Of a stretch of 44,632 nt of DNA, positions 22,953 to 44,078 are shown piece after piece. The notes under the pieces are model-generated. The model saw only the letters and a program-made list of their open reading frames with translations. It ran no database searches and was not told the DNA's origin. Made by a program: the position numbers and the translations under genes. Positions within the stretch are counted from its first letter, which is position 1, and each line of letters opens with the position of its first letter. The DNA is from a phage, in the NCBI GenBank assembly GCA_031490075.1, contig GCA_031490075.1_4354.1, one strand, 5' to 3'.

Positions 22953-23699
22953 ATGAGCGTTAAAATTGGTTGGGAAGAACGGAAGAAAATGGTCGAGTTA
23001 GATTTAAAGAAACACGGCGGGAAGTACACAATATCCACAAGTTATGACGGTAGTGAGTACATCGACTCGACTAGCAAGATTAGACTTATTTGCCCATCCC
23101 ACGGTGAATTTTCAGCTATAGCCCGTAGCATCTCTGGAGGACATGGGTGTATGAAATGCAGTCGAGAAGCTGCGGCTGCTGCATACCGCAAGAATACAGA
23201 TGCCGTTATTGAGCAAATAAAATCCGCGGATGCTCGATATACGTTCGTTGGTTTTGAAGGCGGCGCGTACCTAAACAAAAACTCCAAAGCGATACGTGCA
23301 TGTAATGACCACGGGTTGTTTGGTACAGGGGTTAATAATATTTTAGTGCACGGGCATGGTTGCCCGTCGTGCGCCAGACACGGCTACGATTCTAACAAAC
23401 CAGGGTACATTTACGGACTTCTTTCTGCATGCGGTAAATATCTTAAAATAGGTATTACTAACAAGTTAAAGCAACGACTTGCTCAACTGGAGCGCTCCAC
23501 TCCATTTGAGTTCCATGTGCTTAGTGTATACCGAGACGCTAATGGTGCTCGTTGCCGTATGTTGGAGCGATACTTTCACCGCGCACACATATCGGCGGAG
23601 CTAAGCAACTTTGACGGGGCCAGTGAGTGGATGGTGGCTAATAGCGAGATAATAGCCGAGTTCACGGAGCTATGTAACGGAAAAGTGCGCAATGAGTGA
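22953..23699 (+). CDS. GIY-YIG / T5orf172-like endonuclease (homing endonuclease-like)
   Basis: PGYIYGL...YLKIGIT...R matches a GIY-(about 10 aa)-YIG core; N-terminal duplicated Cys/His motifs; opposite strand to the surrounding tail genes. Confidence 0.6.
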   Translation: MSVKIGWEERKKMVELDLKKHGGKYTISTSYDGSEYIDSTSKIRLICPSHGEFSAIARSISGGHGCMKCSREAAAAAYRKNTDAVIEQIKSADARYTFVGFEGGAYLNKNSKAIRACNDHGLFGTGVNNILVHGHGCPSCARHGYDSNKPGYIYGLLSACGKYLKIGITNKLKQRLAQLERSTPFEFHVLSVYRDANGARCRMLERYFHRAHISAELSNFDGASEWMVANSEIIAEFTELCNGKVRNE

Positions 23700-26943: not shown

Positions 26944-27135
26944 ATGTCCAGTTTACCAGTTTCCTTAATTCTGTTTGCACTGCTCGCTTATTTCGCGCCT
27001 TTCCTGGTTGCGTATTTCCGTAACCATAAAGCGAAATTAGCGATATTCATGGCTAATCTGTTTCTTGGATGGGTTCTGCTGCCGTGGGTATTTATTTTAA
27101 TCTGGGCTTGCAACTCGAATGTCAAAGAGAAGTGA
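26944..27135 (+). CDS. Small membrane protein (two predicted helices)
   Basis: 63 aa, mostly hydrophobic; start placed at ATG 26944 downstream of the promoter (the longest ORF from 26845 would include the promoter). Confidence 0.5.
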   Translation: MSSLPVSLILFALLAYFAPFLVAYFRNHKAKLAIFMANLFLGWVLLPWVFILIWACNSNVKEK

Positions 27136-27172
27136 GCTAGTATAGGACAAATCCTAAGCACGAGGAATAAAC

Positions 27173-28303
27173 ATGGCCCGGAAGAAAATAACCGACGAAC
27201 AGTTGCAGGAAGAATTGAACGCCGGTATGAAGAATGTAGATATCGCCCGTAAATACGGCATCTCAGACCGCGTAATTCGTATCCGTAAAGCGAAGCTGGC
27301 TAAGAAAGGCGTGGGCCACGGGCGCGACGTTAGCCACCTTGTGCCAGACGGCTACAAGATTAAAGGAACGTCGTCACTTGTGGACGAGTTCGGCAACACT
27401 AAGTTGCAATGGGTTAAGACTGATACCGACGCCGAACGTCAGGTTGAATTGATGAAAGCCGTAATAGAGGGCATGAAGTCAGAGATTACGCCCGTTGCGC
27501 CTGTTAAAGCGGCGCGCGCCAAACGTGACGACAAGCTACTCAATCTTTACACTGTATCTGATTTCCATCTCGGTATGCTGGCATGGGCCGATGAGAGCGG
27601 CGACGACTGGGACATGAAGATTGCAGAAGACCTGTTCTCTCGGTGGTTCGACGCGGCGTTTCAGAAAGCACCGGATGCAGGAACAGGAGTTATTAACCTG
27701 CTTGGGGACTTCGCACACTTCGATAGTCTTGATGCCGTTACCCCCGAGTAGCGCCATGTATTAGATGCGGATACTCGCTATCAGAAACTGGTACGTTACA
27801 TGATTCGTATGGTCCGCCGTGTTGTTGATATGGCGCTGGTTAAGCATCACACAGTAAAACTTTTAATCGTTCAAGGTAACCACGACCCTGTTGGCTCCGT
27901 ATGGCTTGCTGAAATGTTCACGGTTTTATACTCAAACGACAGCCGAGTGATTGTTGATACGTCGCCGGATGTTTACAAGATGGTGCAACACGGCAAAACG
28001 ACGCTGTTCTTCCATCACGGGCATAAAGCACGATTCGACGCTATCGAACCGGTTATGATTGCCAAGTTCCGTAAAGCGTTCGGCGAGAGTGTTTACAGCT
28101 ACGCCCACGTAGGCCATCTGCACCACCAGAAGATTGTAGAAAGCCGTAACATGATTGTTGAGCAACACCGCACCTTAGCGGCTAAAGACGCCTACGCCTC
28201 TCGCGGCGGATGGATGTCGGGCCGCAGTGCAAATGTAATTACTTATAGCGCCGAATATGGCGAGGTCGCACGTTTAACTATTTCACCGGAGATGCTGGGA
28301 TGA
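27173..28303 (+). CDS. Calcineurin-like metallophosphoesterase with N-terminal HTH-like region, interrupted by an in-frame TAG at 27749-27751
   Basis: Track ORFs 27173..27751 and 27800..28303 are in the same frame with a single TAG between them. Motifs SDFHLG and LLGDFAHFD lie upstream of the stop; QGNHD, HHGH and GHLHH lie downstream. Confidence 0.65.
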
Positions 28304-28788
28304 AAGATATTGTAATTTTCGATTTAGACGGGACATTGGCCGACGGTACCCATCGCTTACACCTGTTACCAAAAGATAACTACGGAGAAACGTGGGCGTG
28401 GAAGCCATTTAACATGGCCTGCAAAGATGACGCTCCGATATACGACAATATCCATTTGTGTAGCGTACTGTGGCATTCCGGACTTACTATAATTATCCTT
28501 ACCGGGCGAAGTGATGACGCTGAGGAGGAGACTCGCGAATGGTTACGAGAGAATAACGTTAGGTTTGACACGCTAATCATGCGCAGCAAACACGACAACA
28601 GAAAAGACATCGTAATTAAAGAAGAGGTGTTGCGTGCTTTCGGACTGGAAAGAATCTTGTGTGCGTTCGACGACTCTCCAGCGGTAATAAAGCATTTCCG
28701 TGACCTCGGCATAACCGCACACGCAGTTACCGAATACGACTGTAACGGGAACTCTACACACTTAAAACCACACGGGAGCGATAAATAA
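28300..28788 (+). CDS. HAD-superfamily phosphatase (nucleotidase or polynucleotide 3'-phosphatase-like)
   Basis: N-terminal FDLDGTL is the HAD motif I; start overlaps the upstream stop. Confidence 0.7.
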   Translation: MKDIVIFDLDGTLADGTHRLHLLPKDNYGETWAWKPFNMACKDDAPIYDNIHLCSVLWHSGLTIIILTGRSDDAEEETREWLRENNVRFDTLIMRSKHDNRKDIVIKEEVLRAFGLERILCAFDDSPAVIKHFRDLGITAHAVTEYDCNGNSTHLKPHGSDK

Positions 28789-29342
28789 TGGCTAAGGTAA
28801 TTATTCTTAATGGCCCTGCGGGTTGCGGGAAAGACACGCTTGCTATGGCGCTGGTAGAAATGGGCTTTGCGAAAGGAACTACCAGTTTCAAGAATCCAAT
28901 GTTCAATATTGCTTTGGCAGCGTTAGGCCAGGATGCTTACCACGAATTTCTCGACGGCTACGACGACCGGGCGCGGAAAGAAAAACCAGAGGGTTTTCTT
29001 AATGGGTTGTCCCGCCGCCAGTTAATGATTGCCATTTCTGAGCAATTCATTAAACCGGTATTCGGCGATGATTATTTCGGTAAGTATCTTGCTGAAAACT
29101 TGCCTGACGGCGACGAAGTTTTTGTAGTGTCCGATGGTGGATTCGCCAGTGAAGTTGCCCCTATCGTCGCCGCGGGGCATGACGTGCGAATCGTCCGCCT
29201 CCATCGTGACGGCTATACGTTCATCTGCGATAGCCGTGGCTATCTGTACGATGTTAGTGGTGTAAAAGATTACGACACCTACATCATACCGGGTGACGTT
29301 AAATCGAACGTTATAGACATTGCTTTAAAATTAGGTTTGTAA
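28788..29342 (+). CDS. P-loop kinase (dNMP kinase-like)
   Basis: N-terminal VIILNGPAGCGKDT Walker A with the GKDT variant, which I recall from T4-type dNMP kinases. Confidence 0.55.
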   Translation: MAKVIILNGPAGCGKDTLAMALVEMGFAKGTTSFKNPMFNIALAALGQDAYHEFLDGYDDRARKEKPEGFLNGLSRRQLMIAISEQFIKPVFGDDYFGKYLAENLPDGDEVFVVSDGGFASEVAPIVAAGHDVRIVRLHRDGYTFICDSRGYLYDVSGVKDYDTYIIPGDVKSNVIDIALKLGL

Positions 29343-29348
29343 GAAAAA

Positions 29349-29370
29349 GGCCCCGAAAGGGGCCTTAGTT
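29349..29370. terminator. Bidirectional terminator
   Basis: GGCCCC-GAAA-GGGGCC flanked by A-run and T-run; between convergent genes. Confidence 0.7.
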
Positions 29371-30543
29371 TTATGCGTAGGTGATACGTTGAATTACGAT
29401 AGACGACTGGTACTGATTGCCGGTAGCCTGGCCTTCAATGGACTGAGTGATTGACTCAGGCCCACCAATCTCAGGTGTAACCGCCGTAAGCTCTGCACGT
29501 TTCAAACTGAAAGACATAGCCCCGTTTACCCCTGCCAGAATAGAGTTAATCTCTACCTGCTGCTCGTTGATAAACTTCTGAATCATCGCCATGTCGTACA
29601 GCTTGCCAGAGATAGAGAATGTGTTAGCTGCGCGTCCACGTTCGACGAACGCCACGCTACTGTTACCGAGTTCGAACTGCGCGGAAGCTCCGTTGTCGTT
29701 GGTGATGGTGAGAGTATCGCAACGCAACGGCGTGGAGCCATCGAACACCGACACATCTACCGACGAGAACGGCTCATCGGTGAACGTAACCTGAGAGAAA
29801 TCAGAGCCAGACGGCTGCGCGGTAAGAATCTCCTGACTCAGGCCGATGAACGGGAAGCTGCCGGTGACCATGGCGTTAACCGCCTGCTCTACGGTAAAGC
29901 CAGAGATTTCCACACCTTTGGTCAGCATGTACGCGTCCGGGTTACCACGCCGGCCCTTGAACCACGTCAGGATGGAGAACGTCTTACACGCGTTACCGGT
30001 TTCCAGCTTGTCGCCAGTTTTTGCGTCAGTGGTTACTGTCTCTGCTGTCAGCGTGTGCTGAATACCTGCGCCCGTAACTACCAGAGCGGAAACCGCGGTC
30101 ACGATAAACGGTTTTGCGTTGTCGCCGGCTAAGTCGGTGAACGCAATAAGGTCGCCAACTTCTACACCGTCAGTAATGAAGCTACCAGCAGCGCGGGTGA
30201 ATGTTTTACCTGCTGGGGTGACCGTAATTTCGGCGCCAGTAATCTCTACCCCAGCTTGCCACGTAGAAGCCATCGCTCCCGCAAGGAAATCATCCTGGCT
30301 ACGAGAGCTAAGTTCGATGGCGTACTCCCCGCTAACCTGTTTGTTGCCGGTTCGGATGGATGTAGTTTCACGGCTGCCGTCCAGTTCGTTGGAAGTCAGT
30401 GCATCGCGGGTTACAGCGGGAACGCCGCCCGTGTTACGCAACGGCGACCATACCGGGTTAGTCGGTGTTACGCCAGGGGTATTTTCCGCCACATAGAATT
30501 GCGCGGTATTCGCGCCCTTAAAAGGAGTTGTAGCCATATTCAC
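29371..30543 (-). CDS. Major tail protein
   Basis: 390 aa, Thr/Gly/Ala-rich; position immediately upstream (in transcription order) of the chaperones and tape measure. Confidence 0.65.
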   Translation of the reverse strand: MNMATTPFKGANTAQFYVAENTPGVTPTNPVWSPLRNTGGVPAVTRDALTSNELDGSRETTSIRTGNKQVSGEYAIELSSRSQDDFLAGAMASTWQAGVEITGAEITVTPAGKTFTRAAGSFITDGVEVGDLIAFTDLAGDNAKPFIVTAVSALVVTGAGIQHTLTAETVTTDAKTGDKLETGNACKTFSILTWFKGRRGNPDAYMLTKGVEISGFTVEQAVNAMVTGSFPFIGLSQEILTAQPSGSDFSQVTFTDEPFSSVDVSVFDGSTPLRCDTLTITNDNGASAQFELGNSSVAFVERGRAANTFSISGKLYDMAMIQKFINEQQVEINSILAGVNGAMSFSLKRAELTAVTPEIGGPESITQSIEGQATGNQYQSSIVIQRITYA

Positions 30544-33565: not shown

Positions 33566-33790
33566 TTAAGCGCAGTCACCAGATTTGCTACGGTAGTGCG
33601 CAGCGCGGTAACATCGGTTCGGAGTTTGTTGTACCCCGGCGGCGGCGGTAATGGCCGCAGGTGCAGCCACAGTAGCTGACTTTTTAACCCCACCAACTAC
33701 GCTGGTAGTAGCAGGCGTGACTGGGATATCAAAGTCACCGAAGTCGACATTCTGAAGGCTGCGCGGCAAGCCTTTTCCGGTCTTAGCCAT
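33566..33790 (-). CDS. Hypothetical small protein
   Basis: ORF just downstream of the capsid gene. Confidence 0.35.
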   Translation of the reverse strand: MAKTGKGLPRSLQNVDFGDFDIPVTPATTSVVGGVKKSATVAAPAAITAAAGVQQTPNRCYRAAHYRSKSGDCA

Positions 33791-42672: not shown

Positions 42673-43117
42673 AGAATCCCCTTGCATATGCGTCTGACCA
42701 TCAGAGCGCACCAGACGCGCCCTACGCGTCTAAAGGGATTATATAAGGGGATTGGGCGGGATGTACAGAAAAGCCCTCCGTAGAGGGCTTGTATCAGTTA
42801 TATAGGCCGTGGCGTGGCGCTCGTTTACCGTCGCCGCCGTAATGGTCGTTAGCTACAGCGATAGCCCAGGCATTCGGAAAGACTAAAAGTTGCATTAAAT
42901 TCCTCAAGGTCTATTTTACGAATACATGGTGAAAGGCAATCAGCGAAAACCAACTCACCAGAATCGATAACGACGAATCACCAGCCTTTGAATATGTTCT
43001 CGGAAATACCCTCCGCAACTTCGCGTACATTAGGCATGTGTTCTGGGAAATCGTGGAAGTTTCTGGACAAAAATTCAAGTGCCTCACACCGGTTTATGTG
43101 GTAGTTATCATATTCAA

Positions 43118-43826: not shown

Positions 43827-44078
43827 TCACATCAGCCCCATCCTTTGAAGCTGCGGTTGCCGTGTTGTGTAATAAGCCAGCGAAGAACTGTCTTCACCGA
43901 CGAACAACCCCGCGTACACGTTCGGTTCTTGCGTCTTAATAGCCAGTAACTCCTTAAACGCCTCCAGTTGAAACTCACCGTTAATTGACAGTTGCCCGCC
44001 TAACGTCTGTTTCTCTGACTCAAGGACCAGAATACGACGCTCAAGTGACGCGATTGTGATTTTAGGCATTGGTATCAC
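43827..44078 (-). CDS. Hypothetical protein
   Basis: ORF; stop overlaps region of next gene start. Confidence 0.35.
   Translation of the reverse strand: MIPMPKITIASLERRILVLESEKQTLGGQLSINGEFQLEAFKELLAIKTQEPNVYAGLFVGEDSSSLAYYTTRQPQLQRMGLM

What the first reader, a model, noticed from the sequence alone, without database searches (positions are those of the whole stretch)
27173..28303. Metallophosphoesterase catalytic motifs are split by a single in-frame amber codon
ORFs 27173..27751 and 27800..28303 share a reading frame and are separated only by TAG at 27749-27751; the intervening codons are sense. The motifs D-x-H (SDFHLG) and G-D-x-x-D-like (LLGDFAHFD) lie upstream of the stop, while GNHD and the His-rich GH motifs lie downstream. 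This is therefore one gene that is either a recent pseudogene, a sequencing or assembly error, or a case of programmed amber read-through or suppression. The upstream fragment alone would retain an HTH-like N-terminus without a complete active site.
Basis: seen in the sequence. Interest (0 to 1): 0.7.

Follow-up and report, generated by a model that had tools for sequence, protein, structure and literature searches.

The report
Amber nonsense mutation in phage phosphoesterase gene
One base change (TCG serine to TAG stop), seen only in this assembly, cuts a common and normally intact phage nuclease-like gene in two; it is an ordinary knockout or a base-call error, not programmed read-through.

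Summary
TAG at 27749-27751 interrupts, in frame, a single 376-codon gene (27173-28303). The gene encodes an N-terminal helix-turn-helix plus a metallophosphoesterase (MPE) domain. The window is a Kagunavirus (Guernseyvirinae) genome identical to Logan contig SRR24751126_53.

The closest relative, phage vB_EcoS-22664BS2, differs in this gene by two bases. One is C-to-A at 27750 (TCG Ser193 to TAG). All 74 other homologous loci examined have a sense codon there (71 Ser, 1 Cys, 2 His) and none has an internal stop. The 192-aa product is on record for one contig only.

Recoding is not supported. The window has no tRNA gene, TAG ends 10 of 78 mapped genes, no RNA structure follows the stop, and ATG 27800 has no Shine-Dalgarno sequence.

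The family (phrog_704, "DNA repair exonuclease") is in about 2,000 GenBank phage records, nearly all full length. The model's nearest solved folds are PolD DP1, Mre11 and SbcD.

Best reading: a very recent private nonsense allele that inactivates an accessory gene. An assembly or base-call error is the main rival and needs the reads to settle. Interest is low. Side note: the same gene is independently broken in several other public assemblies, and this window has two more private gene-breaking changes.

The parts
27173..28303 (+). Whole interrupted gene: HTH + metallophosphoesterase, 376 codons plus TGA (phrog_704, annotated 'DNA repair exonuclease' or 'calcineurin-like phosphoesterase' in relatives)
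   Evidence: It differs by 2 nt from the intact CDS of vB_EcoS-22664BS2.
27162..27166 (+). Shine-Dalgarno-like GAGGA, ending 6 nt before ATG 27173
   Evidence: Read from the sequence; upstream 25-mers printed.
27173..27751 (+). Upstream ORF: 192 codons plus TAG. The predicted product is the HTH, a beta-hairpin/helix linker, and MPE motifs I and II only.
27194..27304 (+). N-terminal three-helix HTH region (residues 8-44)
   Evidence: Helices at 8-16, 21-28 and 32-44 in the AF2 model. Weak GerE/LuxR-type HTH match below Pfam's threshold. Weak match to the GerE structure 1fse.
27560..27568 (+). MPE motif I, D130-F-H132
   Evidence: D130 and H132 are invariant in alignment A2.
27704..27724 (+). 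MPE motif II, G178-D179-F-A-H182-F-D184 (GDxxH, as in Mre11-type nucleases)
   Evidence: G178 and D179 invariant; H182 and D184 at least 90% conserved.
27741..27745 (+). C5 homopolymer four bases upstream of the stop codon
   Evidence: Sequence. PHROG fragment family phrog_20703 matches residues 1-193 only.
27749..27751 (+). In-frame amber codon TAG at codon 193. Base 27750 is A here and C (TCG, Ser) in the closest relatives.
27752..28303 (+). Untranslated remainder of the gene, in frame: 183 codons plus TGA, carrying motifs III-VI
27800..27802 (+). First in-frame ATG after the stop. The 25 nt before it (TCGCTATCAGAAACTGGTACGTTAC) contain no Shine-Dalgarno sequence, and there is no promoter-like site nearby.
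27875..27886 (+). MPE motif III, G235-N236-H237-D238
   Evidence: N236 and H237 invariant.
28013..28024 (+). MPE motif IV, H281-H282-G283-H284
   Evidence: H282 invariant; H281, G283 and H284 at least 90% conserved.
28112..28126 (+). MPE motifs V/VI, G314-H315-L-H317-H318
   Evidence: G314 and H317 invariant; H315 at least 90% conserved.
26944..27135 (+). Context: upstream 63-aa superinfection-immunity-like gene (PF14373), first gene of the same-strand module
28300..28788 (+). Context: downstream HAD-type polynucleotide kinase/phosphatase-like gene (PF25109 HAD_PNKP, phrog_415). Its ATG overlaps the MPE gene's stop codon.
28788..29342 (+). Context: P-loop dNMP-kinase-like gene (phrog_139), last gene of the module. 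A bidirectional terminator-like hairpin follows at 29347-29366.

Best explanation
A single, very recent C-to-A substitution at 27750 turned the conserved Ser193 codon (TCG) into an amber stop. The gene is an otherwise intact accessory gene of a Kagunavirus. It encodes an N-terminal HTH fused to a nuclease-type metallophosphoesterase (phrog_704). In an ordinary non-suppressor E. coli host, translation ends at codon 193. The product is a 192-aa fragment holding the HTH and MPE motifs I-II but lacking motifs III-VI, which supply most of the metal ligands, so the enzyme is null. The downstream 183 codons are not translated to any useful extent because they have no ribosome-binding site of their own. 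The phage tolerates this because the gene is dispensable, at least under the conditions the sample came from. Shown here: the substitution, its derived and private status, the loss of the motifs, and the absence of any recoding apparatus. Inferred: that the base is real in the sequenced population, that the fragment is inactive, and that the gene is dispensable.
For: The gene differs from vB_EcoS-22664BS2 by 2 nt only, 27750 A/C (stop) and 27910 (synonymous). All 74 other homologous loci have a sense codon at this position (71 Ser, encoded by both TCN and AGY codons; 1 Cys; 2 His) and no internal stop, within the conserved block VTPxSGHxLDADT. The 192-aa product is on record for one contig only, Logan SRR24751126_53, which is identical to the window. 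Motifs III-VI are invariant and lie downstream of the stop. The AF2 model (pLDDT 88.7) has an MPE fold that spans the stop. There is no tRNA. TAG terminates 10 of 78 mapped genes. No Shine-Dalgarno sequence precedes ATG 27800, whereas the four other gene starts examined have GAGGA/GGAG-type sites. No RNA structure lies near the stop (z -0.78). Other independent loss-of-function alleles of the same gene exist in otherwise syntenic phage contigs: a 263-bp deletion in SRR31850215, in-frame internal deletions in SRR27718716 and SRR32125630, and a frameshift in ERR4406720. This argues the gene can be lost. Across 20 collinear genes compared with 22664BS2, differences are 138 synonymous, 29 non-synonymous and 1 stop. 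That pattern suggests most differences in the contig are real evolutionary variation rather than random error.
Against: No reads could be inspected, so a consensus or assembly error cannot be excluded. The contig is an automated Logan assembly seen in one sample. It also carries two further private gene-breaking changes, an opal at 42978-42980 and an AC duplication at 43866-43867; these could point either to relaxed selection or to imperfect sequence. The family is intact in about 98% of GenBank phage hits, so purifying selection is normally strong. Dispensability is inferred and was not tested.
Confidence: 0.68

Rival explanations
1. Sequencing, consensus or assembly artefact: the phage in the sample really has TCG and an intact gene, and the A at 27750 is an error or a minority variant picked up by the de Bruijn-graph assembler.
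For: The allele is seen in one automated Logan contig only. It is absent from IMG/VR, GenBank phages and complete E. coli genomes. The same contig has two other private disruptive changes. At least one GenBank relative, M01 (OR061069), shows a cluster of local indels in this gene that looks like sequencing error. C-to-A is the typical oxidative-damage artefact in Illumina libraries (background knowledge).
Against: The contig appears to close on itself: it is 44662 nt against the 44632-nt window, a 30-nt difference that I take to be the k-1 overlap (inference). That would imply good coverage, where the majority path normally wins. Differences from relatives are dominated by synonymous changes, 138:29:1. 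All three private disruptions fall in small accessory genes and none in the large essential genes, which fits tolerated real mutations better than random errors (inference).
Confidence: 0.22
2. The amber is real but is suppressed, either by an amber-suppressor host used for propagation (supD would restore Ser; supE, supF and others would insert another residue) or by basal near-cognate read-through. Some full-length enzyme would then be made.
For: Many laboratory E. coli K-12 hosts carry supE44 (background knowledge). The base after the stop is C, a comparatively weak termination context in E. coli (background knowledge; sequence). Position 193 tolerates His, Asn, Gly or Cys in distant family members.
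Against: Nothing in the sequence indicates a suppressor host, and the sample metadata were not available. The second private nonsense codon is an opal, which amber suppressors do not read. Ten genuine genes end in TAG and would be extended in a strong suppressor.
Confidence: 0.07
3. Programmed amber read-through or stop-codon reassignment: TAG is decoded as a sense codon by design.
For: Only the bare fact that a single in-frame stop is flanked by sense codons.
Against: The stop is absent from all 74 other homologous loci. No suppressor tRNA is present. This is the only in-frame TAG found within a well-aligned gene. TAG is used as a terminator in 10 of 78 genes. There is no stimulatory structure. 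The allele is 2 nt from an intact relative.
Confidence: 0.01
4. A functional two-protein arrangement: an HTH-containing 192-aa regulator plus a separately initiated 167-aa C-terminal half (re-initiation at ATG 27800) that reassemble or act independently.
For: An in-frame ATG lies 48 nt after the stop. PHROGs holds small families matching only the N-terminal (phrog_20703, residues 1-193) or C-terminal (phrog_20762, residues 259-374) parts.
Against: No Shine-Dalgarno sequence or promoter precedes 27800. The stop cuts through the single MPE beta-sandwich domain of the model, between motifs II and III. Homologues are single polypeptides. The PHROG fragment families are most simply frameshifted annotations (inference).
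Confidence: 0.02

Closest known systems
phrog_704 'DNA repair exonuclease' / calcineurin-like phosphoesterase of Guernseyvirinae and many other siphoviruses (e.g. QZI78527.1 of Escherichia phage vB_EcoS-22664BS2; homologues in Jersey, K1G, T1-like, Webervirus and Vibrio phages)
   Same: Full-length match with E 1.9e-162. The window's gene equals the 22664BS2 protein except at codon 193. It has the same genomic position, between the tail-tube gene and the tail-chaperone/tape-measure genes, alongside the Imm, PNK-like and kinase-like genes.
   Different: Here the reading frame is closed at codon 193 by TAG. The family's biochemical function has not been established experimentally as far as I could find.
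Mre11 / SbcD nucleases and the PolD DP1 proofreading exonuclease (nuclease-type metallophosphoesterases)
   Different: Sequence identity is only about 12-17%. The profile search of PDB is not significant (E >= 0.2). There is no Rad50/SbcC partner gene next to it. An extra N-terminal HTH and a family-specific TPxSGHxLDxD block are present. Generic phosphodiesterases and phosphatases (LpxH, MJ0936, Rv0805, GpdQ) score only slightly lower, so nuclease activity is an inference.
Classical phage amber mutants (for example lambda Sam7 or T4 am mutants) and ordinary nonsense pseudogenes
   Same: A single-base change converts a sense codon to UAG in an otherwise intact gene. The phenotype would depend on host suppressors.
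   Different: There is no evidence that this allele was selected or engineered. The gene is probably non-essential, so no suppressor host is needed.

Membership tests
Metallophosphoesterase (calcineurin-like) superfamily | Motifs I-VI: D-x-H, G-D, G-N-H-[DE], H, G-H and G-x-H metal-ligand motifs, in order | tested here: met
   D130/H132, G178/D179, G235-N236-H237-D238, H282 and G314-H315-x-H317 are invariant or at least 90% conserved in a 40-sequence alignment of 33-50% identical relatives.
Metallophosphoesterase (calcineurin-like) superfamily | MPE alpha/beta-sandwich fold | tested here: met
Metallophosphoesterase (calcineurin-like) superfamily | Pfam Metallophos / Metallophos_2 gathering score | tested here: not met
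   PF12850 scores 22.0 bits against a cut-off of 27; PF00149 scores 17.2 against 21.5. The family is too divergent for the Pfam models; membership rests on motifs and fold.
Metallophosphoesterase (calcineurin-like) superfamily | Complete active site encoded in one translated polypeptide (for this window's allele) | tested here: not met
   TAG at codon 193 separates motifs I-II from III-VI.
Mre11/SbcD nuclease family | Significant sequence similarity to Mre11/SbcD | tested here: not met
   Profile search against PDB: Mre11/SbcD hits only at E 0.2-0.84. Single-sequence search: none.
Mre11/SbcD nuclease family | Adjacent Rad50/SbcC-type ATPase partner | tested here: not met
   Neighbours are the Imm_superinfect, HAD_PNKP-like and dNMP-kinase-like genes.
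Mre11/SbcD nuclease family | Nuclease activity on DNA ends | not testable with these tools
   Needs biochemistry. Supported here only by structural neighbours and by the annotation name.
Programmed stop-codon read-through / amber reassignment | Stop codon conserved at the site in homologues | tested here: not met
   None of the 74 other loci has a stop: 71 Ser, 1 Cys, 2 His.
Programmed stop-codon read-through / amber reassignment | Phage-encoded suppressor tRNA, or genome-wide in-frame TAGs with TAG avoided as a terminator | tested here: not met
   No tRNA. TAG ends 10 of 78 mapped genes. This is the only in-frame TAG inside a well-aligned gene.
Programmed stop-codon read-through / amber reassignment | Stimulatory downstream RNA structure | tested here: not met
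   MFE z-score -0.78 against shuffles for 27735-27860.
Recent nonsense (loss-of-function) allele / nascent pseudogene | Sense codon in the closest relatives, one mutational step from the stop, with the rest of the gene undecayed | tested here: met
   TCG to TAG. Only one other difference in 1131 nt, and it is synonymous.
Recent nonsense (loss-of-function) allele / nascent pseudogene | The variant base is real in the sequenced DNA | not testable with these tools
Only the assembled contig is available.

The most novel reading that the evidence does not exclude
Loss of this HTH-metallophosphoesterase may be recurrently favoured rather than accidental. Besides this amber, at least four other public assemblies of related phages carry independent knockouts of the same gene: a 263-bp microhomology deletion, two in-frame deletions that remove the catalytic core, and a frameshift. 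This could reflect escape from a host immune system that senses the protein, or a fitness cost in some hosts.
Probability: 0.08. Interest if true: 0.5.

Novelty: already known. Interest (0 to 1): 0.15.

Why it matters
It matters little in itself. For annotation, 27173-28303 should be called one disrupted gene (a pseudogene or an amber allele of a phrog_704 metallophosphoesterase), not two hypothetical proteins, and it should not be listed as a recoding candidate. If the base is real, this phage is a natural knockout of a very widespread phage gene of unknown function, present in about 2,000 GenBank phages. Such a knockout could be compared with near-isogenic intact relatives to learn what the gene does. 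The scatter of independent knockouts in public assemblies hints that the gene is dispensable.

Tried and rejected
- Exact 40-mer around the TAG in IMG/VR: no match. Complete E. coli genomes: no match.
- Literature searches for the run accession, for Kagunavirus or Guernseyvirinae with phosphoesterase, and for phage escape mutants with metallophosphoesterase found nothing on this gene. A search inside the Stokar-Avihail escaper preprint also found nothing relevant.
- Sequence searches of PDB gave no significant hit.
- I tried to display a second contig that carries the identical tape-measure protein, to see its allele. The tool hides it as 'similar', the intact protein could not be looked up, and the neighbouring 139-aa protein turned out to be unique to this contig.
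- Considered and rejected: stop-codon reassignment; structure-stimulated read-through; an internal promoter or RBS for the second half; a meaningful antisense ORF at 27536-27757 (no homology support, and it changes Arg to Leu only).
- IMG/VR contig IMGVR_UViG_3300045988_026856 has the same length (44632) as the window, but this is a coincidence. It carries TCG and is only 98.4% identical in this protein.

Full report
**What the window is.** Megablast of the locus and of both halves of the window finds Kagunavirus / Guernseyvirinae phages of E. coli (K1G-like siphoviruses). No GenBank genome is near-identical overall; the best matches are about 92-96% identical and mosaic. The 192-aa upstream product is on record for a single contig, Logan assembly SRR24751126_53 (44,662 nt), and the fetched stretches of that contig are exact substrings of the window. 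The window is therefore that automated assembly, 30 nt shorter, which I take to be the k-1 overlap of a contig that closes on itself (inference).

**The observation.** TAG sits at 27749-27751. ORFs 27173..27751 and 27800..28303 are in the same frame. Translating straight through gives 376 sense codons with one internal stop...SLDAVTPE*RHVLDADT....

**One gene, and what the codon used to be.** The closest relative for this module, Escherichia phage vB_EcoS-22664BS2 (MZ234010), annotates a single 1131-nt CDS at the same place. The window differs from it by two bases. One is 27750, A instead of C (TCG Ser to TAG). The other is 27910, which is synonymous. Phage Bas71 also has TCG, and phiEc4 has AGT.

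I fetched 71 IMG/VR loci encoding relatives at 42-99% identity and combined them with three GenBank loci. None of these 74 has a stop in the gene. The aligned codon is Ser in 71 (both TCN and AGY codon families, so the amino acid itself is selected), Cys in 1 and His in 2. It lies inside the conserved block VTPxSGHxLDADT. In a wider alignment of 40 representatives at 33-50% identity, the position is mostly Ser, sometimes His, and rarely Asn or Gly; the neighbouring T190, L197, D198 and D200 are invariant or nearly so. The amber is thus a derived, one-step, very recent change, and the rest of the gene shows no decay.

**Is it programmed?** The evidence says no.
- The stop is absent from every relative.
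- ARAGORN finds no tRNA gene in the window.
- TAG is the natural terminator of 10 of 78 homology-mapped genes, against 35 TAA and 33 TGA.
- The only other in-frame TAG flagged lies in a poorly aligned tiny ORF.
- The RNA around and after the stop folds no better than shuffles (z = -0.78).
- The second half has no translation signals of its own. The four other gene starts examined have GAGGA, GGAG, GGGAG or GGAGG upstream, whereas ATG 27800 is preceded by ...AAACTGGTACGTTAC. No promoter-like site lies nearby.

**What the gene is.**
- PHROGs places the intact protein in phrog_704 'DNA repair exonuclease' (E 1.9e-162, full length).
- Pfam gives only sub-threshold Metallophos/Metallophos_2 matches and a weak GerE-type HTH match.
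- The family is large. There are 3,768 clusters at 90% identity with E <= 1e-10 and 4,584 clusters at 50% identity with E <= 1e-3, almost all 370-420 aa long.
- tblastn finds the gene in 2,005 GenBank phage records, 1,959 of them near full length. These include Kagunavirus, Jerseyvirus, T1-like, Webervirus, Dhillonvirus, Vibrio, Rhodobacter and Campylobacter phages.
- The alignment shows the canonical MPE ligand motifs: D130-x-H132, G178-D179-x-x-H182, G235-N-H-D238, H281-H-G-H284 and G314-H-x-H317.
- An AlphaFold2 model built on that alignment is confident (mean pLDDT 88.7). It shows a three-helix N-terminal HTH (residues 8-44), a beta-hairpin/helix linker, and an MPE sandwich from about residue 119 to the C-terminus.
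- Sequence-level similarity to any solved structure is not significant.

The protein is therefore a member of the MPE superfamily by motifs and fold. It is nuclease-like by nearest neighbours and by its GDxxH motif II. It is not demonstrably an Mre11/SbcD family member: there is no significant sequence match and no Rad50/SbcC partner gene.

It sits in a four-gene same-strand module, consisting of a superinfection-immunity-like protein, this gene, a HAD-type PNK-phosphatase-like protein and a dNMP-kinase-like P-loop protein. The module is embedded between tail genes on the other strand and ends at a bidirectional terminator-like hairpin.

**Consequence of the stop.** Codon 193 lies 9 residues after motif II. 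The 192-aa product keeps the HTH and motifs I-II and loses motifs III-VI, which means it loses most of the metal ligands and more than half of the sandwich. It cannot be an active phosphoesterase (inference from the established MPE mechanism). Whether the fragment folds or still binds DNA is unknown.

**Real mutation or error?** This cannot be settled without the reads.

Points in favour of a real mutation:
- The contig appears complete and closed on itself.
- Across 20 collinear genes (15,054 nt) shared with 22664BS2, the differences are 138 synonymous, 29 non-synonymous and 1 stop. That is the signature of genuine evolutionary divergence rather than random error.
- Loss-of-function alleles of this very gene occur independently elsewhere.
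  - Logan SRR31850215_110 has a 263-bp deletion (27489-27751 in window coordinates, flanked by a CGCC microhomology) in a nearly identical allele.
  - SRR27718716_2929 (P0122) and SRR32125630_94 (P0156) have in-frame deletions that remove the catalytic core; from the junction sequences I read these as deletions between short repeats.
  - ERR4406720_767 has a frameshift near codon 228.
  - Pantoea phage LIMEzero has the gene annotated in two overlapping pieces.

Points in favour of an error:
- The allele is unique to one automated assembly.
- The contig carries two more private disruptive changes (see below).
- GenBank phage M01 shows how sequencing errors can mimic a split in this gene.

I put about 0.7 on a real allele, about 0.2 on an artefact, and the remainder on suppression or leaky read-through that yields some full-length protein.

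**Other things seen.**
- A 90-aa hypothetical gene (43121-42852, minus strand) has CGA to TGA at 42978-42980. It is intact in four relatives, and the truncated product is unique to this contig.
- A 96-aa gene has an AC duplication at 43866-43867 that shifts the frame.
- The 99-aa 'virion structural protein' gene is 53 nt shorter near 33638, and its conserved C-terminus is out of frame. The resulting 74-aa product is also on one other contig, so this is a lineage variant rather than a private lesion.
- PHROGs holds small fragment families matching residues 1-193 and 259-374 of this protein. A C5 run lies four bases upstream of the stop and may be a frameshift hot spot (inference, untested).

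**Verdict.** This is an ordinary private nonsense allele, or a base error, in a known and widespread phage gene. It is not recoding. Interest is low. The only mildly interesting thread is the recurrence of independent knockouts of this gene in public assemblies, which was not tested for enrichment.

Noticed in passing
window 42978-42980 (minus strand; gene 43121-42852): A second private nonsense codon: CGA (Arg48) to TGA in a 90-aa hypothetical gene that is intact in four relatives. The 47-aa truncated product is on record for this contig only.
   Followed up: partly
window 43866-43867 (minus-strand gene 44069-43780): A 2-bp AC duplication (TTATTACAACACGG to TTATTACACAACACGG on the coding strand) frameshifts a 96-aa hypothetical gene that is intact in 22664BS2, SHAK7858, JSSK01 and SGP009.
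   Followed up: partly
window about 33620-33650 (minus-strand gene starting at 33790): The 99-aa 'virion structural protein' gene next to the major capsid gene is 53 nt shorter than in all 12 top GenBank hits listed. A GC-rich GCCGCCGCCGGGG replaces about 65 nt, which puts the conserved C-terminal 29 residues out of frame. The 74-aa product also occurs on one other contig, so it looks like a lineage variant rather than a private lesion.
   Followed up: partly
L079 (SRR31850215_110), L086 (SRR27718716_2929), L087 (SRR32125630_94), L091 (ERR4406720_767), L084 (GenBank OR061069, phage M01), L085 (LIMEzero): The same HTH-metallophosphoesterase gene is independently broken in other public assemblies. 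The lesions are a 263-bp microhomology deletion, two in-frame deletions of the catalytic core, a frameshift near codon 228, a cluster of local indels in M01 (probably sequencing errors), and a frameshift near the C-terminus. Whether knockouts are enriched in this gene was not tested.
   Followed up: partly
window 27741-27745; PHROG families phrog_20703 and phrog_20762: PHROGs contains small 'unknown function' families that match only residues 1-193 or 259-374 of this protein. A C5 homopolymer lies four bases upstream of codon 193, and an extra C there would give an out-of-frame tail of about the right length. This suggests a recurrent frameshift or annotation-split site. Members of these families could not be listed.
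   Followed up: no
window 22953-23699 (+): A 248-aa ORF with weak T5orf172/MUG113-type matches lies on the opposite strand between the tape-measure gene and a 166-aa tail gene. In relatives a 465-aa protein occupies this place, and only its first 162 residues match the window. This may be a homing-endonuclease-like insertion or replacement.
   Followed up: no
window 29374-30537 (minus strand, 388-aa tail tube gene): Compared with 22664BS2, this gene has 7 non-synonymous and only 2 synonymous codon differences, unlike the rest of the shared genes (138 synonymous to 29 non-synonymous overall). This may reflect a small recombinant patch or diversifying change.
   Followed up: no
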